Position numbers and translations under genes: made by a program
Notes under the pieces: generated by a model
Told to the model about the DNA's origin: nothing
Database searches by the model: none
What the model saw: the letters and a program-made list of their open reading frames with translations, nothing else
Assembly: GCA_036338695.1 (NCBI GenBank)
Contig: JAYZBQ010000076.1
Location: 59,625 to 123,624, forward strand
From: Myxococcota bacterium
GTDB lineage: Bacteria > Myxococcota > UBA4151
Reading direction: 5' to 3'
Length of the DNA stretch: 64,000 nt
Shown here: in pieces, positions 1 through 32,531 of the stretch
Layout of the letters: every line of letters begins with the position of its first letter
Position numbering within the stretch: position 1 is the first letter of the stretch

Positions 1-252
1 TACTTGAAGGTGGCGCTCGAGTTTGAGCTGACGGGCGAGAAGTTCAAAGAGCTCGCTGAGGATCGCAAGGGGCGGATCAAGGATCAAGTGATCGAGTTCC
101 TAAGCGATCTAACGGTCGACGATGTGGTCGGCAGTGACAACAAGCAATACATCAAAGAGCGGCTCCTGACCCGGCTGAACCACAGCCTCGAAGGCGAGGC
201 GGGCGGTCCGGTGTTTCGGCGCGTCTTCTTCCCTGAGTTTCTGGTGCAGTAG
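1..252 (+). CDS. fliL: Flagellar basal body protein FliL, C-terminal part (5' end outside the window)
   Basis: RIKDQVIEFLS...IKERLLTRLN...VFFPEFLVQ is a typical FliL C-terminus; directly upstream of fliM. Confidence 0.9.
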   Translation, partial: YLKVALEFELTGEKFKELAEDRKGRIKDQVIEFLSDLTVDDVVGSDNKQYIKERLLTRLNHSLEGEAGGPVFRRVFFPEFLVQ

Positions 253-261
253 GCGTCCAAG

Positions 262-1299
262 GTGTCGGAGCAGATCCTCAGTCAGGACGAGGTCGAAGCC
301 CTCCTCTCGGCGATTAAAAACGACGACGTTCAAGCCAGCGGTGGAACCGGTGAAGCCGGGCAGCCAGCTGATCGGCTCCGGCAAGACGCTGAAGCCATCG
401 ATCTGACGAGCGCCGACCGCACCGCTACGGTGCGCATGCCCAGTCTTGAGATCTTCAATGAGCGCACGGGGATGGCCTTCGGGCAGGTCTTAGAGAGCAC
501 GATCCGGCGCGCCGTGCGTGTCCATCATGACGGCACCGGCCCGATGAAGATGTCGGAGTTTTTGAACTATTTGCCCGTACCCTCATGCCTTAATCTGGTG
601 CGCATCGAACCCTTGTGGGGTGTGTCGCTGCTCGCCGTTGAGGCGCGCTTGCTCTACGCCATGCTCGAAGGTTTTTTCGGCGGGCACGGCTCCGGGCAAC
701 TGCGCACAGAGGCGCATACGTTCACCTCGATCGAGCTGACCTTTGTCAAACGCGTGGTCGAGATTTTCGGCGACAACCTGAGCAAAACCTGGTCGAGCTT
801 TTTGCCCTTTGAGATGAGCTACATCCGGACGGAGTCCAACCCTCAGTACGCCTCGATCGTGCAAGCCAACGACCTGGTCATGGTGACGACCTACAACATC
901 GAGTTGCCCTCCGTACGCGGGAAGGTGCACCTGGCCATCCCCTTCTCGGCGCTCGAGCCCTATAAAAAGGAGCTCGGCGCCGAACTTCAAGTCCAAGCCG
1001 ATGATCGACAGAACGATTGGGCCCAAGCTTTGCAAGAGCAGTTGGGAGAGTTTGTCATCGAGCTTTCAGTGGAGTTAGGGCGCGCTCAGATGACGGTTCG
1101 AGAACTGCTGGCTTTGGAGCCTGGTGCCGTGCTGATGCTGGACCGGCCCGCTGAAGAGCCCCTGGTTCTGACCGTTGAAGGTCGCCCGAAGTATACGGGG
1201 CGCCCTGTCCTCCACCGAAAGCATGTCGGGTTCATGGTGGGTTCCGCTGTGGACGGGGAGGAAGAGCACGATGTCGGAGAAGACCCAAGAGGGGATTGA
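262..1299 (+). CDS. fliM: Flagellar motor switch protein FliM
   Basis: N-terminal CheY-binding ILSQDEVEALL motif, ESNPQY motif, C-terminal SpoA domain. Confidence 0.96.
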   Translation: MSEQILSQDEVEALLSAIKNDDVQASGGTGEAGQPADRLRQDAEAIDLTSADRTATVRMPSLEIFNERTGMAFGQVLESTIRRAVRVHHDGTGPMKMSEFLNYLPVPSCLNLVRIEPLWGVSLLAVEARLLYAMLEGFFGGHGSGQLRTEAHTFTSIELTFVKRVVEIFGDNLSKTWSSFLPFEMSYIRTESNPQYASIVQANDLVMVTTYNIELPSVRGKVHLAIPFSALEPYKKELGAELQVQADDRQNDWAQALQEQLGEFVIELSVELGRAQMTVRELLALEPGAVLMLDRPAEEPLVLTVEGRPKYTGRPVLHRKHVGFMVGSAVDGEEEHDVGEDPRGD

Positions 1300-1549
1300 T
1301 CTCATCCTGGATATCCCGCTGGAGATCAGCGTACGGCTCGGTCGGGCGAAGATGCCCATCCAAGAGTTGATGAGTCTAGCGCCCGGGTCGGTGATCGATC
1401 TGGACAAGCTGAGCGGCGAACCGCTCGATATTCTACTCAACGGGAAGCTGGTCGCACGCGGAGAAGCGGTCGTGGTCAATGATCGCTACGGCGTTCGGCT
1501 CGTCGAGATCATCTCGGCGACCGACCGCATCGCTGGCTTGGGAACGTAG
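1271..1549 (+). CDS. fliN: Flagellar motor switch protein FliN
   Basis: ILDIPLEISVRLG...LVARGEAVVVNDRYGVRL SpoA domain; ATG at 1271 preferred to the ORF-track start 1175. Confidence 0.95.
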   Translation: MSEKTQEGIDLILDIPLEISVRLGRAKMPIQELMSLAPGSVIDLDKLSGEPLDILLNGKLVARGEAVVVNDRYGVRLVEIISATDRIAGLGT

Positions 1550-1554: not shown

Positions 1555-2667
1555 ATGCTAACGCTCGTTTTTATCGCCTCGCTGGCGCAGCCGCAGCCGG
1601 GTCAGAAGCTGTTGCGTGCGGACCTTGTTCGCAGCCCAAAGGGCTCGAACTTGGTCCTCGAGTTCGCCAAACCGATCAAGCGCACCAGCGTCCCCATCGT
1701 CCCCGCCGGTCGGCGCCTCGTGCTCCACCTGCCCGGTCCCGTGAGCACGCGGCTCGCAGGCCAGCGTCAAGGGATGGGCGCAGTCTCGTCGGTTACGGCG
1801 CGTCGCGACCGCGTGACGCTGCAGCTCAACCGGCTCGCAAGACCCTTCGCAGACCGAGCGATCGTTCGGGCTAAGGGCACGACCTGGCGTCTGAAAATGG
1901 CGGATCCGACGGTCGAGCGCGACCTCGCCGATATGTTGCTCGGGACCGCCAAAGTGAAAGAGCGTAAACCTTTTGACGCGCTCACTGAGTCAGCTAAGCT
2001 CAGCGAAGCCGCGCAAGAGAAGGTGAACGCCGAAGAGGTCATCGCAGAAGAGCCAGCCAAAGCGGCAGCCGGCCTCGCGGCCGTCGCCGCCGCTGCGCGC
2101 GGTGAGGCGCCACCTGCTGCCCCCACGAATCCACAAACACCCGGCGCCGGCGCGCCGGCGCCCATTGAACCCTCGGGCGACCTCGGTTCCACTGTGCGCG
2201 TGGTCGGCGGGATCGGCCTGGTGCTTATCGGCCTGCTCGGTTGGGTGGCATGGCGCCGCCGGCAGACGCCGATGGAGGAAGCCTTTGGTCTCAGGGTCGT
2301 GTCACGGGCTAAACTCGACACCAAAAGCTCGGTCGCTGTGCTTGAGGTCGGCGGAGCCGTGCTGATCATCGGGCTGAGTGATCAAGGACCGAGGCTGCTC
2401 GCCCGCCTTGATGACGGTCGAACCATGGAGGACGACGACCAAGGAGCTCAAGAGGTCGAGCGGCTGCGCGCCCTGGTCGGGAAGAATCCGGCAGATCGCT
2501 TGGGCGCGTGGGTCACGGCAGCGCAGGGCGGTCGCCCCGAGCCGGCGCAATCGGCGGCGCAGCCTTTACCCGCTGAGCCGGTCGCTGTCTCGACCCCGGC
2601 AGGGCACAACGAGCGTGCGGACCTTCAGCGACGCTTAGCCGAGATCCGACGGGTATGCTCGGACTAA
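1555..2667 (+). CDS. fliO: FliO-like flagellar export protein with a long N-terminal extension
   Basis: Lies between fliN and fliP; one TM helix followed by the FliO-type LRVVSRAKLDTKSSVAVLEVGGAVLIIGLS segment. Confidence 0.8.
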   Translation: MLTLVFIASLAQPQPGQKLLRADLVRSPKGSNLVLEFAKPIKRTSVPIVPAGRRLVLHLPGPVSTRLAGQRQGMGAVSSVTARRDRVTLQLNRLARPFADRAIVRAKGTTWRLKMADPTVERDLADMLLGTAKVKERKPFDALTESAKLSEAAQEKVNAEEVIAEEPAKAAAGLAAVAAAARGEAPPAAPTNPQTPGAGAPAPIEPSGDLGSTVRVVGGIGLVLIGLLGWVAWRRRQTPMEEAFGLRVVSRAKLDTKSSVAVLEVGGAVLIIGLSDQGPRLLARLDDGRTMEDDDQGAQEVERLRALVGKNPADRLGAWVTAAQGGRPEPAQSAAQPLPAEPVAVSTPAGHNERADLQRRLAEIRRVCSD

Positions 2668-4487: not shown

Positions 4488-5573
4488 GTGGCTGAAGAGG
4501 ACAAAGACTCAAAAACTGAGATGCCGACGCCTCAGAAGATTGAGGACGCCCGCAAGAAGGGGCAGGTCGCCTTCAGCCGTGAGGTGGGCTCGGTAGTCAT
4601 CGTTTTTGGCGGAGCGCTCGCCTTTTTGGCTTTTGGGCGTTCGCTCGCCAAGGGGGTGATCGAGCTCACCGAGATCGCCTACCATCGCATCGCACAGCCC
4701 AACGCGCCGCTCGGCGACCTCGTGATGGACCTAGCGCTGCTGGTGGGGATTCCGCTGGCGGGGATCATGATCTTTCTCGGGCTGTTGTTGTTCGCCGCCA
4801 GCTTTGCGCAGGTGGGGGCGCTGGTGGCTTGGGAGGCGATCAAGCCTGACATCAACAAGCTCAACCCGATCAAAAAAGCCAAACAGATGTACTTCAGCGT
4901 TCAAGGGTTCGCCGATTTCGTCAAAGCGCTGCTCAAGATCGTCGGGCTCGGCTTTGTGGGGTATCTCGTGCTCCGGAGCCGATTTTATGAGCTACCGTCA
5001 ATTATTTGGATGCACCCGGCGGAAGGTCTGGGGAAGGTCGGCGAGATCGCCTTGTTTCTGGTCTTCTCGGTCGCTGCCTTGCTCGCAATCATCGCAACGA
5101 TCGACGTGTTTTATGTGCGCTGGAAGTACACGCGCGACCTGATGATGAGCTTGCGCGATATCCGCGACGAGACCAAAGGGCGAGAGGGCTCTCCTGAGGT
5201 CCGAAGCAAGCGCCGTCAAAAGCAGGTCGAGATGAGCCAACAACGCTTAGGTTCGACGGTTCCGACCGCTGATGTCGTCGTGACCAACCCGACGCACTTC
5301 GCGGTGGCGATCAAGTACGACATGTCCGCAGATGGGGCGCCGATGGTGGTCGCTAAGGGGACCGATAAGGTGGCGTTTAAGATCCGCTCGATCGCGCGTG
5401 AGCACGGCGTCGCAGTGGTCGAGAACCGTTATCTGGCAAGAATCTTGTACGCAAAGGTTCGTGTCGGCGCCGAGATCCCCGAGTCCCTTTGGAAAGCGGT
5501 GGCGGAGGTCCTCAAGCAGGTCGACCACATTCGCCGTCGCGTGCTGCGCCGCAGCGCCCGACCAGGAGGCTAA
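4488..5573 (+). CDS. flhB: Flagellar export specificity switch FlhB
   Basis: KTEMPTPQK..ARKKGQV N-terminus and TNPTH autocleavage motif. Confidence 0.96.
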   Translation: MAEEDKDSKTEMPTPQKIEDARKKGQVAFSREVGSVVIVFGGALAFLAFGRSLAKGVIELTEIAYHRIAQPNAPLGDLVMDLALLVGIPLAGIMIFLGLLLFAASFAQVGALVAWEAIKPDINKLNPIKKAKQMYFSVQGFADFVKALLKIVGLGFVGYLVLRSRFYELPSIIWMHPAEGLGKVGEIALFLVFSVAALLAIIATIDVFYVRWKYTRDLMMSLRDIRDETKGREGSPEVRSKRRQKQVEMSQQRLGSTVPTADVVVTNPTHFAVAIKYDMSADGAPMVVAKGTDKVAFKIRSIAREHGVAVVENRYLARILYAKVRVGAEIPESLWKAVAEVLKQVDHIRRRVLRRSARPGG

Positions 5574-7646
5574 ATGGACAACCTGCAGCGAGACCGAGGA
5601 AACGCCATCGCCGCCTTCGGGATGATGGGCGTCATTTTGTTGCTGATCCTGCCGCTGCCTGCGGCGGTCTTGGACATTATGCTGGCCTTGAGCATCTCCA
5701 TCGCCTTGGTGGTGCTGGTGGCGTCGCTGTATGTCGAGCGACCCGCCGATTTTACGGTCTTTCCTGCGCTGCTGCTGGCGACGACGCTGTTTCGGCTAGC
5801 GCTCAACGTGGGCTCGACGCGCCTGATCCTGCTCAAAGGGAACGAAGGGCCGGGCGCTGCGGGCGATGTGATCGCCACCTTCGGGACCTTTGTTGTTGGC
5901 GGCAATTATGTCGTCGGGATGATCATCTTCCTGATCTTAGTGATCATCAACTTCATGGTGGTCACCAAGGGTGCCGGCCGCATCGCTGAGGTGGCGGCGC
6001 GCTTCACCTTGGACGCCATGCCCGGAAAGCAGATGGCGATCGACGCCGACCTCGGCGCCGGGATGATCGACGAGACCGAGGCGCGCAAACGGCGCGAGGC
6101 GGTGGCGCAAGAGGCTGACTTTTACGGCGCGATGGACGGCGCCTCTAAGTTCGTTCGAGGCGACGCGATCGCCGGCCTTTTGATCACTGCGATCAACATC
6201 GTCGCCGGCTTGATTATCGGTGTCGGGCAGCAGGGCATGGAGCTCAGCGCGGCGGCATCGAATTATACCATTTTGACGATCGGCGATGGGCTCGTCTCTC
6301 AGATGCCTGCGCTGCTGATCTCGGTCGCAGCCGGTATCGTGGTGTCGCGTGCGGGCTCGAAGCAGGTCATCAGCGCTGAGGTGCAGGATCAGCTCTTCAA
6401 TCACGCCGGAAAGCTGAACGTGGTGGCGGTGGTGATCGTCTTGCTGGCGCTGATCCCCGGTATGCCGACCTTCAGCTTCTTGATGCTCGCCGGGGGCGTG
6501 GCCTTTGCTGCGAATCAGATCCGGATCAAGCGAAAGGCTGCTGAGGAAGAGGGGCTCACGCTCGAGCGGATTGAGGACAAGGGGTTGTCGGAGCGTCAGC
6601 GCTTGGAGCGGCTGCTCCCGCTTGACGCGATCGCGCTCGAGGTCAGCTTTCCGCTCGTGCCGCTGGTCGATGCGCAGCGAGACGGCGACCTGCTCGACAG
6701 GATCCAAGCGGTTCGAAAACAGATCGCGCTGCAGTATGGGATCATCCTCCCTCAGGTGCATATTCGTGACAATATTGAGCTCGAAGGCGGCGTCTACCGA
6801 GTGCTCGTTAAGGGCGTCTCGGTGGCTGAGGGGCTGGTGCGCTACGGGCAGTACCTCGGCATGGACCCAGGGACCGTGTTCGACCCGATGGACGGTGAGA
6901 AGACCACCGAGCCTGCCTTTGGCCTTGAGGCGATCTGGGTGCCCGCTGAGGATCGAGACGACGCCGAGCTGCGCGGTTACACGGTCGTCGACTGCTCGAC
7001 GGTGATCGCCACACACCTGACGGAGGTGGTCAAGGCGCACATCGACGAGCTCTTCGGCGACAGCGAGATCGACGACGTGTTACGCATCACGGCCGAACAC
7101 AGCCCTAAACTCGTGGAGGACCTGATCCCAGCGAAGTTGAGCCGCGGTGAGCTGTTACGGGTAATGCGGAACCTGCTGCGGGAAGGGGTCTCGGTGCGCG
7201 ATATGCGCACGGTGCTCGAGACCCTCGCTGATCGCATCCATGAGACCAAGAACACTGATATCCTAGCTGAGTACGTGCGCTATCGCTTGGGGTCGGCCAT
7301 CTGCTCTGAGCTCGCTGATGATGCGCTGCAGATCCAAGGTCTGGTGCTCGACGGGGTGGCGAGCCAGGCGATCCGCGAGAGCCTGACGGCGATCGATTCC
7401 GAGGTTCATGTGGGCTTACAGCCCAATGCGGCACGCGGCTTGCTTTCTAACCTATCGGATCAAATGGAGCAGTTTGTAGTGAGTGGTCGACAGCCTGTGC
7501 TCGTGGTTCCTGCAGAGATTCGCCGCCCCGTGCGCGACTTTCTCGCCCGCCACCTCGGGATGCTGACCGTCCTGTCGCATCGAGAGATCCCGTCGCGCTA
7601 CCGCCTTGAGGCGGTCGGTGAGGTGGGGCTGCAAGCGGCGGCGTGA
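5574..7646 (+). CDS. flhA: Flagellar export protein FlhA
   Basis: FHIPEP signature RIAEVAARFTLDAMPGKQMAIDADL and FYGAMDGASKFVRGDAIAG. Confidence 0.97.
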   Translation: MDNLQRDRGNAIAAFGMMGVILLLILPLPAAVLDIMLALSISIALVVLVASLYVERPADFTVFPALLLATTLFRLALNVGSTRLILLKGNEGPGAAGDVIATFGTFVVGGNYVVGMIIFLILVIINFMVVTKGAGRIAEVAARFTLDAMPGKQMAIDADLGAGMIDETEARKRREAVAQEADFYGAMDGASKFVRGDAIAGLLITAINIVAGLIIGVGQQGMELSAAASNYTILTIGDGLVSQMPALLISVAAGIVVSRAGSKQVISAEVQDQLFNHAGKLNVVAVVIVLLALIPGMPTFSFLMLAGGVAFAANQIRIKRKAAEEEGLTLERIEDKGLSERQRLERLLPLDAIALEVSFPLVPLVDAQRDGDLLDRIQAVRKQIALQYGIILPQVHIRDNIELEGGVYRVLVKGVSVAEGLVRYGQYLGMDPGTVFDPMDGEKTTEPAFGLEAIWVPAEDRDDAELRGYTVVDCSTVIATHLTEVVKAHIDELFGDSEIDDVLRITAEHSPKLVEDLIPAKLSRGELLRVMRNLLREGVSVRDMRTVLETLADRIHETKNTDILAEYVRYRLGSAICSELADDALQIQGLVLDGVASQAIRESLTAIDSEVHVGLQPNAARGLLSNLSDQMEQFVVSGRQPVLVVPAEIRRPVRDFLARHLGMLTVLSHREIPSRYRLEAVGEVGLQAAA

Positions 7647-10992: not shown

Positions 10993-11007
10993 TGGCACGC
11001 CCCTTGC
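10993..11007 (+). promoter_or_regulatory. Sigma-54 (-24/-12) promoter for the flgF operon
   Basis: TGGCAC-GCCCC-TTGC is an exact TGGCAC-N5-TTGC match, 25 nt before the flgF ATG. Confidence 0.85.
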
Positions 11008-16505: not shown

Positions 16506-16507
16506 GC

Positions 16508-18230: not shown

Positions 18231-18233
18231 CCC

Positions 18234-22202: not shown

Positions 22203-22213
22203 GAAGGCACACC

Positions 22214-24118: not shown

Positions 24119-24134
24119 GGGACAAGGACGTCCC
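24119..24134 (+). promoter_or_regulatory. CsrA-type hairpin in the flagellin-3 leader
   Basis: GGGAC-AAGGAC-GTCCC. Confidence 0.65.
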
Positions 24135-24187
24135 ATTCGCCGGCTGGCGACCCAGGTCACCAGCCACTAGCCATCAAGGAGGATATC

Positions 24188-25021
24188 ATGGCTATTGTAG
24201 TAAGAAGTAATCCGCAGTCGGTCTTTGCACAGGTCCGTCTGAATCGTAGCTCGAACGCCTTACAAGACACCTTTCAGAAGTTGTCGACGGGCTCTCGGAT
24301 CAACAACGCTGGTGACGACGCCGCTGGGCTCGCTATCTCGACGCTGCTCGAGCACCGGATCCGCGGTCAAGGCGCGGCGAAGCAGAACGCGCTCGAAGGC
24401 ATCAGCATGATCCAGACCGCCGAAGGGGGCGTGGAGCAGGTTCGCTCGATGCTCGACCGGATGCGAGAGCTGGCGGTTCGCTCAGGCAACGAGACGCTCA
24501 GCGCCTCGGATCGTTCGAACGCGGACTTGGAGTTTCAGCAGCTCAAGCAAGAGATCACGCGTATCGGCAACACGACCTCGTACAACGGCGTCAACCTGCT
24601 TAATGCGTCACAGACGCTGACGTTCCAGGTCGGCTTTGCCAACACCACGAACAATCAGATCGCGGTGAGCTTGACCGGTAACATGATCGCATCAGGCGCT
24701 GACAGCTTCCTGTCGCTGAGCGGTGACGTCGGTAGCGCGGCTGCTGCAGCGTCGATGTTGGCTAAGATCGACAGCGCGCTGAGTCGGCTCAATGGTTATC
24801 GATCGAAGCTCGGCTCGGTGCAGAACCGGCTCGAGCGAGCGATCTCGAACCTCGAGGCCGACATCGAGAACGCAACGGCGTCGAATAGCCGGATTCGGGA
24901 CGTGGACTTTGCAGAGGAGACATCGAAGATGACGCGTCTGCAGATCCTTGTCCAAAGTGGCACGGCCGTGCTGACGCAGGCCAACGCCAGCCCACAAGCG
25001 GCGCTCTCCCTGCTCGGGTAG
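24188..25021 (+). CDS. fliC: Flagellin 3 (277 aa)
   Basis: KLSTGSRINNAGDDAAGLAIS, QTAEG, LGSVQNRLE, SRIRDVDFAEE. Confidence 0.96.
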   Translation: MAIVVRSNPQSVFAQVRLNRSSNALQDTFQKLSTGSRINNAGDDAAGLAISTLLEHRIRGQGAAKQNALEGISMIQTAEGGVEQVRSMLDRMRELAVRSGNETLSASDRSNADLEFQQLKQEITRIGNTTSYNGVNLLNASQTLTFQVGFANTTNNQIAVSLTGNMIASGADSFLSLSGDVGSAAAAASMLAKIDSALSRLNGYRSKLGSVQNRLERAISNLEADIENATASNSRIRDVDFAEETSKMTRLQILVQSGTAVLTQANASPQAALSLLG

Positions 25022-25044
25022 CGCAGCACGCGGGATCAGCCAGG

Positions 25045-25085
25045 AGGGTGCTCGGGGGTTACCTCGAGCACCCTTTTGGTTTTTT
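25045..25085 (+). terminator. Rho-independent terminator after flagellin 3
   Basis: AGGGTGCTCGGGG-GTTA-CCTCGAGCACCCT stem followed by TTTGGTTTTTT. Confidence 0.85.
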
Positions 25086-25332
25086 AAATTTACAGCAAAT
25101 CAAATGGCTTAGCGTTGCATCGGCTCAAAATGGCCGTGTTTTTAGGGCGTTGCCTTGACTTTGTTCATTCATGCCCCCACACTCTCAATGAAGGTCCACC
25201 TGTCCCCGGGCGACTTAGGAGGTAGTTTTAACATCATGGTTCCGCGCTGGCGAGCGCCGAATCAAGCCGGGCACACGCACCCGTTGAGCTTCAGCCCTTG
25301 GACCCTTGAAGCACAGCAAAACCATACAGAAC

Positions 25333-25353
25333 GCTCTCAAAGGATATGAGAGC
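25333..25353 (+). promoter_or_regulatory. CsrA-type hairpin in the flagellin-4 leader
   Basis: Perfect 7-bp stem GCTCTCA-AAGGATA-TGAGAGC, just before the AAGGAGG RBS. Confidence 0.75.
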
Positions 25354-25374
25354 TAAGCCATCCAAGGAGGAATC

Positions 25375-26208
25375 ATGGCACTTGTAGTACGTAGTAACGT
25401 TCAGTCTGTCTTCGCTCAAAACCGCCTCAACAGAAGCCAGGCGACCTTCGAAGACTCCCTCGCAAAACTTGCCTCGGGTAGCCGCATCAATAAAGCGGCT
25501 GATGATGCTGCTGGTATGGCGGTCTCGACCACTCTTGAGCACCGCATCAAAGCGCAGTCGGCTGCAAAGCAGAACGCTCAGGAAGCGATCAGTATGATCC
25601 AGACCGCAGAAGGCGGCGTGGAGCAGGTGCGCGGTATGATCGACCGTATGCGTGAACTCGCCGTGCGTGCGAGCAACGAAACGCTCAGCGCATCGGATCG
25701 CACGAATGCGAACCTCGAGTTCACTCAGCTTCAAGCGGAGATCAACCGCATCGGCAACACGACGTCGTACAACGGCACGGACTTGCTGGCAGCGACCGCA
25801 GAGCTGACCTTCCAGGTCGGCATGGAAAACAGCGCCAACCAGCGGATCATGGTGACCATGACCGGTAACATGCTGGCGACTGGCACTTCGGCTGCGCTGG
25901 CGCTGACCGGCGGCGTCGACACGACGGCGGGTGCGACGTCGATGCTTGCCAAGATCGACGCGGCGCTGAGCACCCTGAATGGGTACCGCTCGAAGCTCGG
26001 TTCGGTCCAAAACCGCCTGGAGCGATCGATCTCGAACATCGAGGCAGACATCGAGAACGCCACCGCAGCGAACAGCCGGATCCGTGACGTCGATTTTGCG
26101 TCCGAAACGGCGAACTTCACTCGGTCTCAGATCCTTATTCAGTCGGGTACGGCGATTTTGGCTCAGGCGAACAGCTCGCCGCAGGCTGCGCTGTCCCTGC
26201 TGGGTTAG
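25375..26208 (+). CDS. fliC: Flagellin 4 (277 aa)
   Basis: KLASGSRINKAADDAAG, QTAEG, LGSVQNRLE, SRIRDVDFASE. Confidence 0.96.
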   Translation: MALVVRSNVQSVFAQNRLNRSQATFEDSLAKLASGSRINKAADDAAGMAVSTTLEHRIKAQSAAKQNAQEAISMIQTAEGGVEQVRGMIDRMRELAVRASNETLSASDRTNANLEFTQLQAEINRIGNTTSYNGTDLLAATAELTFQVGMENSANQRIMVTMTGNMLATGTSAALALTGGVDTTAGATSMLAKIDAALSTLNGYRSKLGSVQNRLERSISNIEADIENATAANSRIRDVDFASETANFTRSQILIQSGTAILAQANSSPQAALSLLG

Positions 26209-26239: not shown

Positions 26240-26617
26240 ATGGCTGATCCTGCAAGCCTCCAAGCTACACTGATGCCGAGTCGTGCTCCGCGCCTTGGGC
26301 AGCCTGGTGCTGCCGAGGCCAAGAGCGCACGGGTAGCGGCGCCGCAGCCGGTTGCACTTGAGGCAGCCAGCAGCGGGGCGCTAGGACCAGTGCAGTTGGA
26401 GCGTCTGAAGGTCGAAGTGGCTGAGGTGCAAGCCCAGCTGGACCGTCACGGGGTAGACATCGAGATGGAACCCCAAGATGGTCTGGATCCTGCGATCATC
26501 CGCTTGGTTGATCGTGAGACGGGCGAGACCGTCCGGCAGATCCCTCCCAAGGAGTGGCTCGAGATGAGGCGCAACTTGATGGAAGGAAAAGGTCTGGTGG
26601 TCTCCACCATCGCCTAA
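26240..26617 (+). CDS. flaG: Flagellar protein FlaG
   Basis: IIRLVDRETGETVRQIPPKE...GLVV motif; follows a flagellin gene. Confidence 0.9.
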   Translation: MADPASLQATLMPSRAPRLGQPGAAEAKSARVAAPQPVALEAASSGALGPVQLERLKVEVAEVQAQLDRHGVDIEMEPQDGLDPAIIRLVDRETGETVRQIPPKEWLEMRRNLMEGKGLVVSTIA

Positions 26618-26634
26618 CCGACCAGGGCGAAAAT

Positions 26635-26673
26635 GGGCTCAGGGGTGCCTTCGGCGCCCCTGGGTCTTTTTTT
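26635..26673 (+). terminator. Rho-independent terminator after flaG
   Basis: GC-rich stem-loop GGCTCAGGGGTGCCTTCGGCGCCCCTGGGTC followed by T7. Confidence 0.9.
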
Positions 26674-26696
26674 GTGGGTGTGCCACAGAACACATC

Positions 26697-27026
26697 ATGA
26701 GCGAGACCATCCCCAAATCGCAGTATCTTCAGCGCTTACTCGAGCTCAGCGACGCCATGATCGCTGCGCTAGAAGCTGGCGACGTCGACATGGCAGGCGC
26801 GGTGTACGATGAACGTGTTCGCTTCATCGAGACGATGCGCGCCGATGATGAACCGGTTGAGCCCGATGTGATCGAGCGCGTGCTCGCTCGAGACCAGGCG
26901 GTGATCGCTGCAGCGCTCAAGCGGCGGCACGATATGGTGGGCTCGGCCGCTCAACTCAACGCGGTCAGTCGGTACTCAAGCCAGCTGCCGGGGTCCGCTG
27001 ACGGAGGCGATTGGGGCAGCGGCTAA
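26697..27026 (+). CDS. FliT-like flagellar chaperone (putative)
   Basis: LLELSDAMIAALEAGDVD...ER...I, VLARDQ helical pattern; flagellar context. Confidence 0.6.
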   Translation: MSETIPKSQYLQRLLELSDAMIAALEAGDVDMAGAVYDERVRFIETMRADDEPVEPDVIERVLARDQAVIAAALKRRHDMVGSAAQLNAVSRYSSQLPGSADGGDWGSG

Positions 27027-27042
27027 AGGCCGCCCTACGGGC

Positions 27043-29475
27043 GTGTCGATAGATGAAGTGGAGGTCCCCATGGAAGTCTACTTCGACCAGCAACTGATCG
27101 GCGAGACGGCGAGCGGCTCGTCGCTCACCTCCCTCATCGGGGGCGACCGGCTTGAGCTGACGGTTTGCACGCGCGTCGACGGCGTTGATGATACCCTCGA
27201 CGCGGTTTTGGCGCAGAGCAACTTGACCGGGAAGCGCCTCGATCTCTTCAGCTTTGATGGTTGGCTTGCCGAGTCGGCATCGCTGGTGACGGAGTTGATT
27301 GAGCGGATTGGTCAGAGCAGTACGGTCATCGCCGGTATGACCAGCCAGCGTGATCCGGTGGAATTGCTCGATGAGCTGATGCTCAAGCCGAAAGAGATCC
27401 TCAGCGAACTCGAAGGGGTCGCCGAACATCTTGGTCCAGAGCTGTCCGCAGCGATCGATGAGTTAAAACTCCTGAGCGTCGCTGCTGAGTCGGTTCTAGT
27501 AGCCGCTGTTCGCGACAAGGATTTCATCCGGGTCGCCGACGCGTTACGACTTGAGTGGAGCATCTTTTTGCGTGGGCTCGTCAGCTTTCTTGAGCCCGAG
27601 GTTGCCTTCGAGATACCTGCTGCTGAGCCCAGCTCTGGACTCTCACCCGAGGCACTGTATGCGCTTAATCTTGAGGCGCTTGAGGAGCGCTTTCCTCTTT
27701 TGTGCTCACCCTTGAAGGCGGCTTGGGAAGAGCGTGACGAAGAGCGTTATCGTTTTGAGGAGGGACCATCAGGGTTGCGCGCGCCGCGCATCAACAATCA
27801 GCGGATGTGGTCGGTGATGACCCCCTTGGCTGATGCTGAGCACATCGCCGCAGAGCATCGAGGCGATGCGAAGTATGCGGTATGGGATTGTGCGGTCTCA
27901 TGGGGGCTCTCGGGCGAGTTAGCGCATCAGATTTTAGCGGGTGAGATGGAGGGACGACCACAGATTTTTGTTCGACCTGACCTTCAAGCTTTTGCCGCTG
28001 AGCTGCACTGCTGTGACTGGCGACCCCTACTCGAGGCGGATCACACGATTCTGTGCACGACGGTGAGCGACTACCGCTGGACGCTCCGGAACTGCTTTGT
28101 ACACAATGACCGGATTCGTCGTTTGAGCAGTCCGAATCTTCTCGCGGTCGACCCTGAGCTGTACGTAGAGCTCCACGAACAGAGCGGACATACGGAACTC
28201 TCCTTGATCATGGAGGATTTTACCGGGATCAGTCGCGGGCGCGGTTGGGTCATCAATGAGCTTCAGAACGTCGCTGTGCTGCTTGACCAGCCCGACGCTC
28301 GCGAGCTTAAAGATATGCGTAAAGGCATGCCGGGTCTGCTGGTCGCTCCGGGACCCAGCCTGAAGAAGAATCTGCATTTGATCCCTGAGTTCGCTAAAAA
28401 AGGCGTGGTGGTCGGGGTCAGCCATGTTTTGGGTAAGTTGCAAGATATGGGCGTGGATCCCGAGCTGACGGTCGCTATTGAAGGGTATGACATCTCGAAT
28501 CACTTTGAAAACAGCGACCCGACGCGTACCTCCCTGTTCTTGCACGAGTCTACAAACCCCAACGTCGTCAATCTGCCGGTCGCACAGCGCTGGGTGGTGC
28601 ACGATGGCGGCATCGGCGCACGGCTGCGCCCGGACGAGAATCTTCGCTCCGTCAACATGGTCGCGTCGAGCTGTACGCACGTGGTCATGTGGGCGCTCAA
28701 GGAGCTCGGCTGCGACCCCATCGTCTTTGTGGGCCTGGACCTCGCGCTTGAGGACGGGCGCCAATACGCCGACGGCTGTGAGGGCACGACACCCACACAG
28801 CAAACCCTCGAGGTCGACGGATACTTTGGCGAAAAGGTTCAGACCTTATCGCAGTACAACGTCTTTCGCGACCAGTTCGAGCTCTGTATCTCGCATCCGC
28901 TCTTCTCGGACCGGCGTTACATCAACGCCACCGAGGGCGGAGCGCGCATTGACGGAACCGATCAGATGTCGCTCGCTGAGGTTATCGAGTCGCTCGCAGA
29001 GCGCCCGGATAAAGAATTGCATGGACCCCTCGTCGCTGAAGAGCATCAGCTGCCGTCCATCGATTGGTCGCTCGCCGCGCAAACGATCGAGACCAGCGCA
29101 TCGGACCTCGAAGAAGCCGAGGCGAGCGCACGTCGCGGATTGAAATCCGCTAAAGAGGCGATCACCTGCTTTAAAGCTGGCGATGAAGCGGGCGTCTCGC
29201 GCCGAGGGCGAGCCGCCTCCAAGCGAGCCAAGCGCGCCAACGAGGTGCTGACCCACGATCACATCCTCAACGGGCGCTGGATGGCTGAACAAAACAAGCG
29301 CTCTCAGCGCCTCGAGCGTGAGGTCCGCTACCTCGGCGACGACCCCAAGGCAGTGATGCGCCATAACCTCAACCACTATCAGCAGCTCCTCGCCTCCATC
29401 GAAGAGGCGACGCGCAGCTTGCGACCGCATTATGAAGAGGCGGCGAAACGAATCCGGGAGCGGCACAATGTTTGA
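27043..29475 (+). CDS. Motility-associated factor (Maf/DUF115) flagellin glycosyltransferase with an extra N-terminal domain
   Basis: LLVAPGPSLKKNL, LGCDPIVFVGLDLA, YINATEGGARIDG; lies between flagellins and pseB. Confidence 0.85.
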   Translation: MSIDEVEVPMEVYFDQQLIGETASGSSLTSLIGGDRLELTVCTRVDGVDDTLDAVLAQSNLTGKRLDLFSFDGWLAESASLVTELIERIGQSSTVIAGMTSQRDPVELLDELMLKPKEILSELEGVAEHLGPELSAAIDELKLLSVAAESVLVAAVRDKDFIRVADALRLEWSIFLRGLVSFLEPEVAFEIPAAEPSSGLSPEALYALNLEALEERFPLLCSPLKAAWEERDEERYRFEEGPSGLRAPRINNQRMWSVMTPLADAEHIAAEHRGDAKYAVWDCAVSWGLSGELAHQILAGEMEGRPQIFVRPDLQAFAAELHCCDWRPLLEADHTILCTTVSDYRWTLRNCFVHNDRIRRLSSPNLLAVDPELYVELHEQSGHTELSLIMEDFTGISRGRGWVINELQNVAVLLDQPDARELKDMRKGMPGLLVAPGPSLKKNLHLIPEFAKKGVVVGVSHVLGKLQDMGVDPELTVAIEGYDISNHFENSDPTRTSLFLHESTNPNVVNLPVAQRWVVHDGGIGARLRPDENLRSVNMVASSCTHVVMWALKELGCDPIVFVGLDLALEDGRQYADGCEGTTPTQQTLEVDGYFGEKVQTLSQYNVFRDQFELCISHPLFSDRRYINATEGGARIDGTDQMSLAEVIESLAERPDKELHGPLVAEEHQLPSIDWSLAAQTIETSASDLEEAEASARRGLKSAKEAITCFKAGDEAGVSRRGRAASKRAKRANEVLTHDHILNGRWMAEQNKRSQRLEREVRYLGDDPKAVMRHNLNHYQQLLASIEEATRSLRPHYEEAAKRIRERHNV

Positions 29476-30436
29476 CCAGGCTTCACTGCTCATCACAGGC
29501 GGAACGGGTAGCCTAGGGAACGCGCTGACCCGCTATCTACTCGACCACACGAATTTGCGCCGCGTGATCATCTACAGTCGCGACGAGCTCAAGCAGCATG
29601 AGATGCGCCAGCGCTTCGGCAACGACCCAAGATTACGGTTTTTTATCGGCAACGTGCGCGACTTAGATCGGCTCCGACGCGCTTTTACAGGGGTTGATTA
29701 CGTCATCCATGCGGCGGCGCTCAAGCAGGTCCCAGCCGCTGAATACAACCCTTTTGAGTGCATCAAGACCAACGTTTTGGGTGGGCAGAACGTGATCGAG
29801 GCGGCGCTCGACTGTGGCGTCAAGAAGTTGGTCGCTCTATCGACGGACAAAGCGTGCAATCCCATCAATTTGTACGGCGCGACCAAGCTGTGCTCCGATA
29901 AGCTTTTTGTCGCGGGTAACGCCTACGCAGGCGGTTCGGGCACCCAGTTTGCGGTGGTCCGCTACGGCAACGTCTCGGGCTCGCGCGGCTCGGTGGTTCC
30001 CTTGTTCAAACGATTCGCTGAGACGGGCGGCGAGGTCACCATCACCGATGAGCGGATGACGCGCTTTTGGATCACCATCGAAACGGCGGTTCAGCTGGTG
30101 ATGGACAGCTTTGAGCACATGGTCGGCGGGGAAATCTTTGTGCCCAAGATCCCCTCTATGCGGGTTGTGGATCTGGCACAGGCGCTGTGCCCTGGGCAGC
30201 CAATTCGGGTCATCGGGATTCGCCCGGGCGAGAAGCTGCACGAGGCGATGATCGGCGAAGACGACAGCCGCTCGGTGATCGATATGGGCGCCCGCTACGC
30301 GATCTTGCCGGAATTTGAGTGGTACAATGCGCGCCGGGATCGAGGCACGCCGGTGCCCGACGGGTTTAGCTACACCTCGGATCGCAACGAGGACTGGCTG
30401 ACGGTCGAGCAGCTCAAGGAGTTGTCGGCGCGATGA
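29468..30436 (+). CDS. pseB: UDP-N-acetylglucosamine 4,6-dehydratase (inverting)
   Basis: ITGGTGS, SRDELKQ, HAAALKQVPAAEYNPFECIKTN, LSTDKA..PINLYGATKL. Confidence 0.95.
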   Translation: MFDQASLLITGGTGSLGNALTRYLLDHTNLRRVIIYSRDELKQHEMRQRFGNDPRLRFFIGNVRDLDRLRRAFTGVDYVIHAAALKQVPAAEYNPFECIKTNVLGGQNVIEAALDCGVKKLVALSTDKACNPINLYGATKLCSDKLFVAGNAYAGGSGTQFAVVRYGNVSGSRGSVVPLFKRFAETGGEVTITDERMTRFWITIETAVQLVMDSFEHMVGGEIFVPKIPSMRVVDLAQALCPGQPIRVIGIRPGEKLHEAMIGEDDSRSVIDMGARYAILPEFEWYNARRDRGTPVPDGFSYTSDRNEDWLTVEQLKELSAR

Positions 30437-31563
30437 TCCCTTATGGACGGCATGAGCTTAGACCCGAAGACCGCGACGCAGTGCTGCGCGTCTTGGAGTC
30501 CGGTTGGCTGACCGGCGGACCGGCGGTGCAGGAATTTGAGGCGGCGCTGTCGAGCGTCTGCCAGGCGCCGCATGTCGTGAGTTGCTCGAACGGAACCACG
30601 GCGCTGCATCTGATCGCTGAGGCCATCGCGGCGCCCCCAGGCGCCTGGTGGATCTGTACGCCGAGCACCTTCGTCGCAAGCATTCAGGCAGGTATCTACG
30701 CAGGCTATCGCCCCGTTTTTGTCGACGCGGACCCGCAGACCGGACTGATCGATCTCGAGTCGTTGCGCGGCTTGCTCGAGGCGGCACGCGATCATCAGGC
30801 GGTGGTCGCTGCCGTGGTCGCTGTGGACCTGAACGGTCACTGCGTACCGCTCGAGGACCTCGTCGATTTGCTGGATATCTACGCCGTGCCCATCGTGCGA
30901 GACGCTGCGCACAGCTTGGGCGCTTTGGACGCCGGCGGGATACCGGTCGGCGGGAGCGATCGGGTGCTGGCGACGGCGCTGAGCTTTCATCCGGTCAAGC
31001 TGATCGCTGCAGCAGAGGGCGGCGCCATCGTCGGGCACGATGACGAGTTCATGGCGCGACTGCGCCACCTAAGGAGTCACGCGATGGTGCGCCAGCCTGG
31101 AACACCGAGTGATTATCGCGTCGACGCCGTCGGGTATAATTATCGCCTCTCTGACCTTCACGCCGCGCTCGGGCAGAGCCAACTGGCCAGGATCGATGAA
31201 AAGCTGGCGCGCCGGCGCGCGCTGGCGCGCCAGTATCAAACATTGCTCGCCGATGTGGACGGGGTGGAGGTCGTGTCACCATCACCTCAGACCCAGTCGG
31301 CGTGGCACCTGATGAGTGTCCTCGTCGACCCTGAGCGTCGCTGGCAGCTGATCGCTAGCTTGCGTGCGAAAGGCGTAGGCGCAGCCCATCATTACCCGGC
31401 TGCGCACCTTCAGCCGGTGTATCAAGAGTTGCTGCCAGGGTTGGAGGGTACCTGCCCTGGCGCCGAGCGTTACTGTGCGTCTCAGGTGACGTTGCCGCTC
31501 TTTGAAGAGCTGACCGAAGAACAGGTGACCGAGGTCACTGACACGCTCAAAGCGCTCCTATAA
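30433..31563 (+). CDS. pseC: DegT-family sugar aminotransferase, PseC-like
   Basis: MIPYGR, SNGTTALH, DAAHSLG, SFHPVK, GYNYRLSD; follows pseB. Confidence 0.88.
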   Translation: MIPYGRHELRPEDRDAVLRVLESGWLTGGPAVQEFEAALSSVCQAPHVVSCSNGTTALHLIAEAIAAPPGAWWICTPSTFVASIQAGIYAGYRPVFVDADPQTGLIDLESLRGLLEAARDHQAVVAAVVAVDLNGHCVPLEDLVDLLDIYAVPIVRDAAHSLGALDAGGIPVGGSDRVLATALSFHPVKLIAAAEGGAIVGHDDEFMARLRHLRSHAMVRQPGTPSDYRVDAVGYNYRLSDLHAALGQSQLARIDEKLARRRALARQYQTLLADVDGVEVVSPSPQTQSAWHLMSVLVDPERRWQLIASLRAKGVGAAHHYPAAHLQPVYQELLPGLEGTCPGAERYCASQVTLPLFEELTEEQVTEVTDTLKALL

Positions 31564-31649
31564 GCAACGCATTCGAAACGGTAAATTCGACTTTTTAGGG
31601 TTGTAAGCGGTGCGTGCATGAGTCAATCCTTCGGGCGGAGCCTTTTGAG

Positions 31650-32531
31650 ATGAGCAACCCAGTCTTGCAAGTTGGTGATCGTGTCGTGATCGTCCCTCGC
31701 TCGGGCAGCATGGCAAGCGTGCAAATCTCAGGGCGCGTCCTCGCCGCAAAGGGGACCGACGCGGTACGCATCGCCTGGGACCTCGACGGCCGAAACCCCT
31801 TTGAAAAGGGTGACGAGTTTTTGGTGATCGGGCGCGACATGCGCCGCCGCGGCACGTTCATGAGTGGTGACGTCAGCAGCGCCAATCTGGTGCTGCGTGA
31901 AGCCGCAGGAGACGGGCGCTCGAACCGGCGCTTCGCGCGGGTCGAGAGCATGCTTAAGTTTTCGTGGCGCGGGCTGAACCCCGGTGAGGTGGAAGCGCTC
32001 GAGTTTAAAGTGCGCGACGCCGTCGGTTTACGCCAAGGCTTGAGCGCAGAGAACGTGGCCGCGCCGAAGACGCAGCTCGGCGATTACCTCGAGAAGCGCC
32101 TGAGTGTGCTTGAAGAGCTCATGAGGCGTATCCTCGAGCGGCTTGAGGTGAATGACCCCGCCAGCGCCGAGTTGACCGAAGGGCTCTGTGATCTGAGCGG
32201 CTCAGGCATGGTGTTTCCCGTTGATCACGGGCACTATCGCGTAGCGGTGGCGTTTACGGCGATCAGCCCGGTCGATCAGGAGTCGATCGTCCGCTACAAC
32301 TTTCACGTCGAGCGCTCTCGGCGCCGGAAGGCGGTTGAGGGGGAGGGTCAGCACACCGAGTTTAGCGGTGAGATGCCGGCGTTGACGCTCGCTCAGAAAA
32401 AGGATCTGGCACTCTGCCCCGTGCAAGTGGGTGACTTTGTCGAGATCTCGCTGACGCTCCCGCTTGAGGTCCCAGCGGAGATTCGCGTGGTGGCGCGCGT
32501 CGTTCGCTTGGAATCCGGCGAACGCAGCTAA
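31650..32531 (+). CDS. PilZ-domain c-di-GMP effector with a rearranged C-terminal barrel
   Basis: RRFAR (RxxxR) and DLSGSG (DxSxxG) motifs; ATG 31650 follows GGAG. Confidence 0.75.
   Translation: MSNPVLQVGDRVVIVPRSGSMASVQISGRVLAAKGTDAVRIAWDLDGRNPFEKGDEFLVIGRDMRRRGTFMSGDVSSANLVLREAAGDGRSNRRFARVESMLKFSWRGLNPGEVEALEFKVRDAVGLRQGLSAENVAAPKTQLGDYLEKRLSVLEELMRRILERLEVNDPASAELTEGLCDLSGSGMVFPVDHGHYRVAVAFTAISPVDQESIVRYNFHVERSRRRKAVEGEGQHTEFSGEMPALTLAQKKDLALCPVQVGDFVEISLTLPLEVPAEIRVVARVVRLESGERS

What the first reader, a model, noticed from the sequence alone, without database searches (positions are those of the whole stretch)
1..32531. Intact-looking flagellar supercluster in a Myxococcota-like genome
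Seen: more than 30 uninterrupted flagellar ORFs with promoters, terminators and glycosylation genes, on the same contig as a TIGR04551-like barrel and myxobacterial-style Cys-rich/DAG-linker lipoproteins. Known: the classic cultured myxobacteria glide and do not swim. Inference: an uncultured lineage that retains a functional, probably polar (FlhF/FlhG) flagellum.
Basis: partly seen in the sequence, partly recalled or inferred. Interest (0 to 1): 0.7.

Follow-up and report, generated by a model that had tools for sequence, protein, structure and literature searches.

The report
Myxobacterial flagellum without chemotaxis genes
An uncultured marine relative of the gliding myxobacteria carries a complete, conserved set of flagellum genes that also turns up in ocean RNA libraries, yet no chemotaxis genes were found in the six genomes of its class, so it likely swims without the usual steering system.

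Summary
Confirmed: 32 flagellar genes plus maf, pseB, pseC and a PilZ-type gene fill 262-32531. The missing core (motAB, fliL, flgB-E, fliE-K) lies upstream on this contig and on one that overlaps it by 141 nt. The genes are under purifying selection, the 32.5 kb junction recurs in relatives, and RNA-library contigs from four studies cover the filament genes. The genome belongs to a six-species marine class in the phylum of Myxococcaceae, and its FlhA groups with that phylum.

Flagella in Myxococcota are not new: Anaeromyxobacter (2008), Zodletone MAGs (2021), 106 of 355 phylum genomes here. This scan also noted a full set in a Polyangiaceae genome (e1-9812353).

The unusual part: no CheW or CheB in 6 of 6 class genomes, no chemoreceptor, CheR or CheA domain in 5 of 5, whereas 97 of 106 flagellated phylum genomes have CheW. 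Candidate controls are a strand-swapped YcgR/MotI-like PilZ protein closing the cluster and a nearby diguanylate cyclase. An Asp-less MotB paralog sits just upstream (noted before, e1-934479). Swimming, polar placement and the brake are inferred. New variant of a known kind; interest 0.5.

The parts
262..1299 (+). fliM (keeps the N-terminal LSQxEVxALL peptide that binds CheY-P in model organisms; role recalled)
   Evidence: TIGR01397 over cut-off; motif kept in G001, G004, G005
1175..1549 (+). fliN (true start likely downstream of the listed TTG)
   Evidence: TIGR02480 over cut-off
1555..2667 (+). fliO-like, long N-terminal extension
   Evidence: Pfam FliO 34 bits
2655..4446 (+). fliP, fliQ, fliR export gate
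   Evidence: TIGR01103 over cut-off; TIGR01402 and TIGR01400 best hits, below cut-off
4488..5573 (+). flhB with NPTH cleavage motif
   Evidence: TIGR00328 over cut-off; motif
5574..7646 (+). flhA
   Evidence: TIGR01398 856 bits, over cut-off; SctV model below cut-off; tree
7658..8917 (+). flhF GTPase
   Evidence: TIGR03499 over cut-off; GPTGVGKTT, DTAG, TKMDE motifs
8902..9801 (+). flhG (MinD/ParA-type ATPase in the flhF-flhG-fliA position)
   Evidence: MinD/ParA family hits; name from position
9798..10547 (+). fliA (sigma28)
   Evidence: TIGR02479 over cut-off
10544..10972 (+). fliJ, placed after fliA rather than after fliI
   Evidence: TIGR02473 over cut-off; same place in G001, G003, G004, G005
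10993..11007 (+). sigma54-type promoter site before flgF
   Evidence: pattern recurs before flgF in G001, G003, G004, G005; 8 matches in the whole genome
11036..15279 (+). flgF, flgG, flgA, flgH, flgI (rod, P and L rings)
   Evidence: NCBIfam hits; Pfam ChapFlgA
15276..16007 (+). flgJ: rod-binding domain fused to an M23 peptidase
   Evidence: Pfam Rod-binding + Peptidase_M23
16106..16131 (+). sigma28-like promoter site before flgM
   Evidence: pattern recurs before flgM in G001 and G005
16194..16801 (+). flgM and flgN-like
   Evidence: Pfam FlgM over cut-off, FlgN weak; RNA-library contigs on flgM in X2, X6, X8 and depth in all four runs
16803..19130 (+). flgK, flgL hook-filament junction
   Evidence: TIGR02492 and TIGR02550 over cut-off
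19200..19914 (+). csrA and fliW
   Evidence: NCBIfam CsrA and FliW hits
19931..19956 (+). sigma28-like promoter site before the first flagellin
   Evidence: pattern recurs at this place in G001 and G003
20018..20848 (+). flagellin 1 (276 aa, divergent, 36-38% to the others)
20859..22618 (+). fliD cap and fliS chaperone
22896..26208 (+). flagellins 2, 3, 4 (275-277 aa, no large variable domain)
   Evidence: RNA-library contigs in four runs
25038..25081 (+). terminator-like hairpin after flagellin 3
26240..27026 (+). flaG, terminator-like hairpin (26635-26667), fliT-like
   Evidence: Pfam FlaG over cut-off; FliT weak
27024..27050 (+). sigma28-like promoter site before maf
   Evidence: pattern recurs in G001 and G003
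27043..31563 (+). maf/pseD-like transferase, pseB, pseC (likely flagellin glycosylation with a nonulosonate sugar)
   Evidence: PseB over cut-off, PseC and PseD below; a NeuB-family synthase elsewhere in the genome
31650..32531 (+). YcgR/MotI-like two-barrel protein with RxxxR and DxSxxG motifs and a strand-swapped PilZ domain; candidate c-di-GMP motor brake

Best explanation
This is the native, complete flagellar gene set of a small uncultured marine class of Myxococcota in whose genomes no chemotaxis (Che) genes were found, so the cells likely swim with a glycosylated, probably polar flagellum that is not steered by Che signalling and is likely throttled by c-di-GMP through a YcgR/MotI-like protein. 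Shown: all 24 core gene families, conservation across the class, purifying selection, presence in RNA libraries, no Che matches. Inferred from family knowledge: a sigma54 (FleQ-like) to sigma28/FlgM hierarchy with FliW-CsrA control of flagellin; FlhF/FlhG placing one or few polar flagella; two stator sets of the PomAB/MotPS (sodium) type; Maf-dependent glycosylation of five short flagellins. Inferred and untested: the PilZ protein at the end of the cluster binds c-di-GMP, made for example by the cyclase 1.6 kb before the FleQ-like gene, and slows or uncouples the motor, giving go/stop control rather than gradient climbing.
For: Core genes outside the window: motA, motB x2, fliL at C76:57182-59876; flgE at the start of C76; flgBC, fliEFGHI, fliK, flgD at the end of C48, which overlaps C76 by 141 identical bases; G001 carries both blocks on one contig. 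Pooled dN/dS against G001 is 0.078 for 51 flagellar-cluster genes and 0.084 for 7 neighbouring non-flagellar genes. FlhA over cut-off in 5 of 6 class genomes, split over two contigs in the sixth. FlhA tree: one 21-row clade (SH-aLRT 100) holds all 14 same-phylum rows and 5 of 6 Myxococcota-labelled rows. RNA-library contigs of four studies cover 28, 14, 12 and 11 of 30 bins of 13000-32900, with long pieces carrying few other letters, including flgM, which was outside the search query; a control stretch gave 8, 5, 0 and 2 bins. Che families: CheW 0 of 6, CheB 0 of 6, MCP 0 of 5, CheA dimer domain 0 of 5, CheR 0 of 5 over cut-off, with control genomes ringing each time; the two Hpt proteins of G000 are HisKA-HATPase-REC-Hpt hybrids, not CheA; CheW, MCP and CheB proteins from relative G109 find no tblastn hit in G000. 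PilZ protein: in 6 of 6 class genomes, motifs invariant in 15 of 15 homologues, best Foldseek matches B. subtilis MotI/DgrA (E 2.8e-4) and V. cholerae VCA0042; four GGDEF matches in G000.
Against: Nobody has seen these cells; swimming and polarity are not observed. FlhF/FlhG also occur with non-polar flagella (recalled). The RNA evidence is from contigs, which show neither strand nor level, and the runs were found with part of this stretch. dS is near saturation (pS 0.66), and against G003 it is saturated. All six genomes are incomplete (59-94%), and G000 alone lacks the SctV gene that its five relatives have, so single-genome absences can be false. FliM keeps its N-terminal regulator-binding peptide, which suggests that some receiver protein still acts on the switch. 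The whole-protein fold match is weak (TM 0.2-0.3; VIA Z 8.1-8.2 at rmsd about 14 A over about 160 residues), and the VIA list mostly tests residues 1-92. The PilZ gene is separated from the main cluster's context only by position; in G004 and G005 it follows pseC on another contig. RpoB places the class with the phylum at SH-aLRT 93 only and left it unresolved in the FastTree run.
Confidence: 0.6

Rival explanations
1. The cells do steer, but through a non-Che route: hybrid histidine kinases phosphorylate a stand-alone receiver protein that binds the FliM N-terminus like CheY.
For: FliM keeps LSQxEVxALL in G000, G001, G004, G005; one stand-alone receiver protein at C63:24566-24964 among 22 receiver matches; GAF-containing and Hpt-containing hybrid kinases exist. 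An earlier, unchecked note reports a light-sensor gene set in this genome (e1-9982781).
Against: The stand-alone receiver is not near flagellar genes. No methylation-based adaptation enzymes were found, so temporal gradient sensing has no evident memory. The FliM peptide may be kept for a structural reason.
Confidence: 0.18
2. The filament serves mainly for attachment or surface sensing on particles or prey, with little or no swimming; the Asp-less MotB makes one stator set a lock or anchor.
For: The first MotB after motA lacks the ion-binding Asp in all class genomes examined. The genome also has four PilT-family ATPases over cut-off, a diverged glt-like cluster and T3SS genes, which point to a surface or contact lifestyle.
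Against: Three of the four MotB proteins keep the Asp, and a second stator set (C48:54067-56555) is conserved in the class. FliG is 98% identical to G001's. P and L rings, needed for rotation, are kept.
Confidence: 0.12
3. A chemotaxis system exists but was missed, through assembly gaps or extreme divergence.
For: All genomes are metagenome assemblies; G000 misses SctV; one CheR-like trace at E 0.004 in G005, below cut-off.
Against: Five separate families are missing in five or six separately assembled genomes, four of them over 90% complete. Multiplying the missing fractions by hand gives about 1 in a million for one locus, if gaps were independent (they need not be). The same CheW search finds 325 of 355 phylum genomes.
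Confidence: 0.06
4. The cluster is foreign or mis-binned (recent transfer, chimera), or the host is not Myxococcota.
For: The class has a long branch; RpoB support is 93, unstarred, and no AU test was run. Top FlhA database hits beyond the class (about 50% identity) include Desulfobacterota names.
Against: Junction pilZ-mce-TIGR04551-argH-dapA-dapB is the same in G001 and G003 and pseC-pilZ-TIGR04551 in G004 and G005; contamination estimate 0.98%; divergence of flagellar and neighbouring genes is equal; FlhA groups with phylum members; homologues at 87% and 69% carry Myxococcota/Myxococcales labels.
Confidence: 0.04

Closest known systems
Flagellar gene cluster of Anaeromyxobacter dehalogenans 2CP-C (Thomas et al. 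2008, PMC2330069; passages read)
   Same: Deltaproteobacterial-type cluster in a Myxococcota genome, judged vertically inherited; near-identical block order from fliL to flgL; swimming reported there for strain K.
   Different: That cluster is one 55.7 kb block with cheA, cheY and mcp genes embedded between motAB and the fli genes, and was reported to lack fliJ, flgN, fliT, flgA, flgJ and fliK. Here those genes have matches (flgN and fliT weak), the set is split into two blocks 56 kb apart, the stators are of another type with tandem MotB, and no che genes were found.
Zodletone spring Myxococcota MAGs (Murphy et al., bioRxiv 2021.07.06.451402; one passage read)
   Same: Uncultured aquatic Myxococcota encoding flagellar assembly, type IV pili and a partial type III system.
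   Different: Those genomes are reported to encode chemotaxis; this class has no match to Che families.
Flagellated bacteria without a chemosensory system: Aquifex aeolicus and 14 of 69 flagellated actinobacteria (Zhu et al. 2023, PMC10746217; passages read)
   Same: Complete flagellar gene set and no Che pathway; the paper calls this very rare and says that how such cells control direction is unclear.
   Different: Here it holds for every sequenced genome of a class inside a phylum where 325 of 355 genomes have CheW, the organism also has type IV pili and glt-like genes, and a candidate PilZ brake lies in the cluster.
YcgR/MotI/FlgZ family of c-di-GMP flagellar brakes and clutches (PDB 5vx6 MotI/DgrA, 2rde VCA0042, 2gjg PP4397)
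   Same: N-terminal barrel, RxxxR linker, DxSxxG motif, C-terminal PilZ-like barrel; best fold matches.
   Different: The PilZ strands are in swapped order (profile positions 11-24, then 60-84, then 27-58), a long helical insert lies between RxxxR and DxSxxG, and no sequence match to solved structures was found.
MotA5B2 / PomA5B2 stator units
   Same: MotA/PomA-type A subunit followed by MotB-type proteins with plug and peptidoglycan-binding domains.
   Different: Each stator locus has two MotB genes. In the cluster-linked one, the first lacks the Asp but has an OmpA domain, the second has the Asp but no OmpA match; noted earlier by this scan (e1-934479).

Membership tests
Bacterial flagellum | Core structural and export genes (fliC, fliD, flgKL, flgBCDEFG, fliE, fliF, fliGMN, motAB, flhAB, fliPQR, fliHI; list recalled) | tested here: met
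   All 24 families matched in window, C76 upstream and C48
Bacterial flagellum | Intact functional motifs (FliI Walker A, FlhB NPTH, FlhA FHIPEP-region motifs, MotB Asp) | tested here: met
   Asp present in 3 of 4 MotB proteins
Bacterial flagellum | Assembled rotating filament and swimming | not testable with these tools
   Only indirect: selection and RNA-library contigs
Non-flagellar type III secretion system | Export-gate proteins score as Sct rather than Flh/Fli; no hook, filament or stator | tested here: not met
   FlhA, FlhB, FliP over flagellar cut-offs and under SctV, SctU, SctR cut-offs; a separate Sct set exists on C45 and C74
Myxococcota | Same GTDB phylum as Myxococcaceae | tested here: met
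   A named Myxococcaceae MAG nests at 100 inside family f10, which the tool lists as same phylum; an f10 genome has GltE over cut-off
Myxococcota | Marker-gene tree groups the genome with the phylum, apart from Bdellovibrionota and Desulfobacterota | tested here: inconclusive
   RpoB only: SH-aLRT 93 under a mixture model on 30 of 50 rows; unresolved with FastTree on 50 rows; no AU test
Chemotactic flagellar system (Wuichet-Zhulin F classes) | Chemoreceptor, CheA, CheW and CheY all present | tested here: not met
   MCP 0 of 5, CheA dimer 0 of 5, CheW 0 of 6; genomes 59-94% complete
Polar flagellar system (FlhF/FlhG type) | FlhF GTPase and FlhG ATPase | tested here: met
Polar flagellar system (FlhF/FlhG type) | Flagellum located at the pole | not testable with these tools
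   Needs microscopy
Anaeromyxobacter-type flagellar cluster | One block with che genes embedded between motAB and fliL | tested here: not met
   motB is followed directly by fliL; the embedded layout is seen in relative G109
YcgR/MotI/FlgZ PilZ brakes | N-terminal barrel plus RxxxR and DxSxxG motifs | tested here: met
YcgR/MotI/FlgZ PilZ brakes | Canonical PilZ strand order | tested here: not met
   Segments match the profile in swapped order in 4 of 5 homologues tested, partly in the fifth; Pfam PilZ positions 43-75 match the last residues
YcgR/MotI/FlgZ PilZ brakes | Binds c-di-GMP and acts on the motor | not testable with these tools
   Inferred from motifs, fold and position

The most novel reading that the evidence does not exclude
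A whole early-branching class of planktonic marine Myxococcota has dropped every Che system while keeping and expressing a full flagellum, type IV pili and glt-like genes. It swims unsteered under c-di-GMP go/stop control through a naturally strand-swapped PilZ clutch, on stators built from two different MotB subunits of which one carries no ion-binding Asp. It would be a natural model for how flagellated cells behave without chemotaxis, and support for a swimming ancestor of the myxobacteria.
Probability: 0.35. Interest if true: 0.72.

Novelty: new variant of a known kind. Interest (0 to 1): 0.5.

Why it matters
Myxobacteria are the textbook non-swimmers with many chemosensory systems. This class inverts both traits: full flagellum, no Che match. 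With 106 of 355 phylum genomes carrying FlgG and FlhA forming one phylum-wide clade, flagella look ancestral and repeatedly lost in Myxococcota, as Thomas et al. proposed from a single genome. The class adds an environmental example, seen in RNA libraries, to a question the literature calls open (how a flagellated cell without a chemosensory system controls its movement) and names testable parts: a PilZ protein, a cyclase, a stand-alone receiver and an odd MotB pair, all of which can be expressed in laboratory strains.

Tried and rejected
Chimera at 32.5 kb: rejected. Relic cluster: rejected by selection and RNA-library cover; note that 'no internal stops in 61 of 61 genes' is true by construction, since genes were taken as ORFs, so full-length alignment to relatives is the real test. 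dN/dS against G003 is saturated and its flgE row is a wrong pairing; not used. A broad sigma28 consensus scan gave 127 genome-wide matches and none clean before the flagellins; sigma70-type promoters: 0 found vs 3.5 expected. No promoter was identified before flagellins 2-4. Parts of the cluster without RNA-contig cover (flgH-I in all runs; flgK-L, maf in X2, X6, X8) and the low-share runs X9-X20 are no evidence either way. Locus L017, labelled Myxococcota, groups with Desulfotalea in both trees and was not counted as support. Single-sequence fold of the PilZ protein was unusable (pLDDT 43); the Atlas search gave PilZ clusters at 0.83-0.85, a lead only; no sequence match in PDB; the wide structural search was not run. 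Complex prediction of the two cluster-linked MotB proteins gave weak support only (score 0.56, best control 0.01, runs agree in at least 89% of contacts, partner pLDDT 65; passes at or under 0.60 came from 18 of 157 solved complexes and both passing mismatches; MotB homodimers are solved, so likeness may explain it). The Asp-less MotB profile matched only 8 of 355 phylum genomes at E 1e-30, with at most 8 candidates scored per genome. Literature searches found no paper on flagella or Che loss in this class, nor on a tandem Asp-less MotB; the library lacks most subscription journals, and no supplementary tables were read, where genome-wide motility tables could list this class. Passages of PMC11821767, PMC8632791, PMC12363192, PMC1183210, PMC10576062, PMC11509652 and PMC10385382 added nothing on this point.

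Full report
What is in the window. From 262 to 27026 the + strand carries 32 flagellar ORFs in near-continuous order: fliM-fliN-fliO-fliPQR-flhBAFG-fliA-fliJ-flgFGAHIJ-flgMN-flgKL-csrA-fliW-fliC1-fliD-fliS-fliC2-fliC3-fliC4-flaG-fliT. Then come maf/pseD-like, pseB, pseC and a PilZ-type gene to 32531. FlhA, FlhB and FliP score over the flagellar cut-offs and under the injectisome ones. After 32.5 kb follow methylmalonyl-CoA epimerase, TIGR04551 (over cut-off), argH, dapA and dapB.

The rest of the flagellum. The window is C76:59625-123624 of a 3.36 Mb assembly, 93.6% complete, 0.98% contaminated. motA, two motB genes and fliL lie directly before the window. C76 starts with flgE, and its first 141 bases are identical to the last 141 of C48, whose end carries a diguanylate cyclase, a sigma54 activator (FleQ-like by position), a TPR protein, flgB, flgC, fliE, fliF, fliG, fliH, fliI, an unassigned gene, fliK and flgD. 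In relative G001 both blocks are on one contig. So the set is complete but split by about 56 kb of other genes. A fifth flagellin lies on C75, a second stator set on C48, and a NeuB-family synthase on C21.

Is it native and maintained? The order pilZ-mce-TIGR04551-argH-dapA-dapB is the same in G001 and G003, and pseC-pilZ-TIGR04551 in G004 and G005 of the other genus. Pooled dN/dS against G001 is 0.078 for 51 cluster genes and 0.084 for 7 neighbours, with dS near saturation. A sigma54-type site before flgF recurs in four relatives; sigma28-like sites before flgM, flagellin 1 and maf recur in two relatives each. The flagellin region is held by 20 listed runs, 19 on record as RNA, from 13 studies, mostly marine; only 3 hold half its words or more. 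Laying four runs from four studies gave cover in 28, 14, 12 and 11 of 30 bins, with long near-identical pieces on flgM, flgK, flgL, fliC1-4, fliD, fliS, flaG and maf in the best run. A control stretch (44100-64000) gave 8, 5, 0 and 2 bins, mostly short or foreign pieces. These are contigs, so strand and level are not shown, but even DNA carry-over does not fit the contrast well.

Who is the host? The class holds six species, one family, two genera. A named Myxococcaceae MAG nests at full support inside family f10, which the tool lists as the same phylum. In an RpoB tree under a mixture model (30 of 50 rows; 20 near-duplicate or long rows left out) the class is sister to the other phylum rows at SH-aLRT 93, apart from Bdellovibrionota and Desulfobacterota; FastTree on all 50 rows left it unresolved. 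Close homologues carry Myxococcota or Myxococcales labels. The genome has myxobacterial-type barrels, a diverged gltC/gltE/cglF-like cluster, Sct genes and four PilT-family ATPases. FlhA falls in one 21-row clade at SH-aLRT 100 with all 14 same-phylum rows and 5 of 6 Myxococcota-labelled rows, which fits vertical descent; no rooted test of transfer was run.

How new are flagella in this phylum? Not new. Thomas et al. 2008 describe a 55.7 kb flagellar cluster in Anaeromyxobacter dehalogenans, report swimming in strain K and propose a flagellated ancestor (PMC2330069, passages). Murphy et al. list flagellar assembly in uncultured Myxococcota (bioRxiv 2021.07.06.451402, one passage). Here FlgG is over cut-off in 106 of 355 phylum genomes of at least 90% completeness, including 39 matches among 171 f10 genomes. 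This scan has also noted a full set in a Polyangiaceae genome (e1-9812353; not checked by me). The Myxococcales T3SS is a separate known system (PMC3459982, passages).

What is unusual. No Che family was found in the class: CheW 0 of 6, CheB 0 of 6, MCP signalling domain 0 of 5, CheA dimerisation domain 0 of 5, CheR 0 of 5 over cut-off. Control genomes rang in each search. The two Hpt proteins in G000 are ordinary hybrid kinases, and real CheW, MCP and CheB proteins from relative G109 find nothing in G000 by tblastn. Across the phylum 325 of 355 genomes have CheW, and 97 of the 106 FlgG-positive ones do; the nine exceptions are the four class members in that sample and G027, G089, G092, G359, G384, and those five also lack an MCP over cut-off. 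So Che loss with flagellar retention has happened elsewhere in the phylum too, but is fixed in this class. The tallies include the unpublished genome G273; without it they read 106 of 354 and 324 of 354, and the 97 of 106 does not involve it. Kin are not independent and the sample is not the whole phylum. Zhu et al. 2023 call complete flagella without a chemosensory system very rare, cite Aquifex aeolicus and 14 of 69 actinobacteria, and say that control of direction in such cells is unclear (PMC10746217, passages). Against a firm absence: all genomes are incomplete, and G000 lacks an SctV gene that its relatives have.

What could control the motor. The last gene of the cluster (31650-32531) occurs in 6 of 6 class genomes and has 15 database homologues, all 51-100% identical. 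RxxxR and DxSxxG are invariant. The model (pLDDT 73.9, pTM 0.48) matches MotI/DgrA, VCA0042 and PP4397 best (weak overall superposition). I read it as a c-di-GMP brake or clutch with a rearranged barrel; binding and action are inferred. G000 has four GGDEF matches, one 1.6 kb before the FleQ-like gene. FliM keeps its N-terminal peptide and one stand-alone receiver exists, which keeps a non-Che switching route open.

The stators. Both loci have two MotB genes. In the cluster-linked one the first MotB has Ser (G000, G001) or Ala (G004, G005) at the Asp position and an OmpA domain; the second has the Asp and no OmpA match. The same pair is in G031 and G042. Of the best 150 representatives found with its profile, 135 aligned at that column and 118 of them lack the Asp. 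I saw this before consulting the scan's notes, which report it as e1-934479. MotA scores best against PomA and MotP models, below cut-off; sodium coupling is an inference from that and from recalled motifs.

Verdict. The cluster is real, native, complete and most likely used. As 'flagella in Myxococcota' it is a new member of a known kind. As a class-wide flagellum with no Che match, a strand-swapped PilZ protein and a split-role MotB pair, it is a new variant of a known kind that gives testable parts for an open question. Interest 0.5.

Noticed in passing
G000:C76:57182-59373 (about 2.4 kb to 0.25 kb before the window; L003:17182-19373): motA followed by an Asp-less MotB with OmpA domain and an Asp-bearing MotB without OmpA match; conserved in the class, G031, G042 and a wide protein subfamily.
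   Followed up: partly
G000:C48:54067-56555 (L267): Second stator set far from the cluster: PomA-like gene plus two MotB genes, both with Asp, only the second with an OmpA match; conserved in both genera.
   Followed up: partly
window 31650-32531: Natural non-circular permutation of a PilZ barrel (two middle strands moved to the C-terminus), fixed across the class.
   Followed up: yes
G027, G089, G092 (f5), G359 (f30), G384 (f34): Five more phylum genomes with FlgG over cut-off but no CheW and no MCP over cut-off: possible independent Che losses.
   Followed up: partly
G000:C48:147662, C12:22567, C26:22076-24231: Four PilT-family ATPases, so type IV pili also run without a Che-type (Pil-Chp, Dif, Frz) system; one copy lies in an 898-residue open frame.
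   Followed up: no
G000:C85:45681-56505 (L244): Diverged glt-like cluster: two TIGR04565 barrels, GltC-like, TPR proteins, GltE-like, CglF-like, all Glt models below cut-off.
   Followed up: partly
G000:C45 (L246) and C74:15528-18632 (L247): Non-flagellar type III genes (sctQ, R, S, T, U, a FliO-like gene, a chaperone); sctV not found in G000 but present in the five relatives.
   Followed up: partly
window 15276-16007: FlgJ rod-binding domain fused to an M23 endopeptidase instead of a glucosaminidase.
   Followed up: no
G000:C75:22773-23579: Fifth, stand-alone flagellin (33-41% identical to cluster copies) next to alanyl-tRNA synthetase.
   Followed up: no
window 22850-22896, 24120-24188, 25340-25375: Leaders of flagellins 2-4 share a CAAGGAGGA ribosome site and extra GGA words, as expected for CsrA control (recalled); no sigma28 site was found before them.
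   Followed up: no
window 22719-22741: RNA-library contigs of three studies share several substitutions and a one-base insertion in the spacer before flagellin 2, so a common strain variant differs from the assembly here.
   Followed up: no
L182-L184 and L230-L232 (G004:C7, G005:C86): In the second genus the flgM-to-flagellin block is inverted and lies upstream of motA.
   Followed up: no
L017: A record titled 'uncultured Myxococcota' groups with Desulfotalea in both RpoB and FlhA trees; probably mislabelled.
   Followed up: partly
window 48602-57935 (- strand): Run of secreted and lipoprotein-like ORFs (barrel-like proteins, FG-GAP repeats, amidohydrolase-like, PPC domain, YceI-like) with no NCBIfam match.
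   Followed up: no
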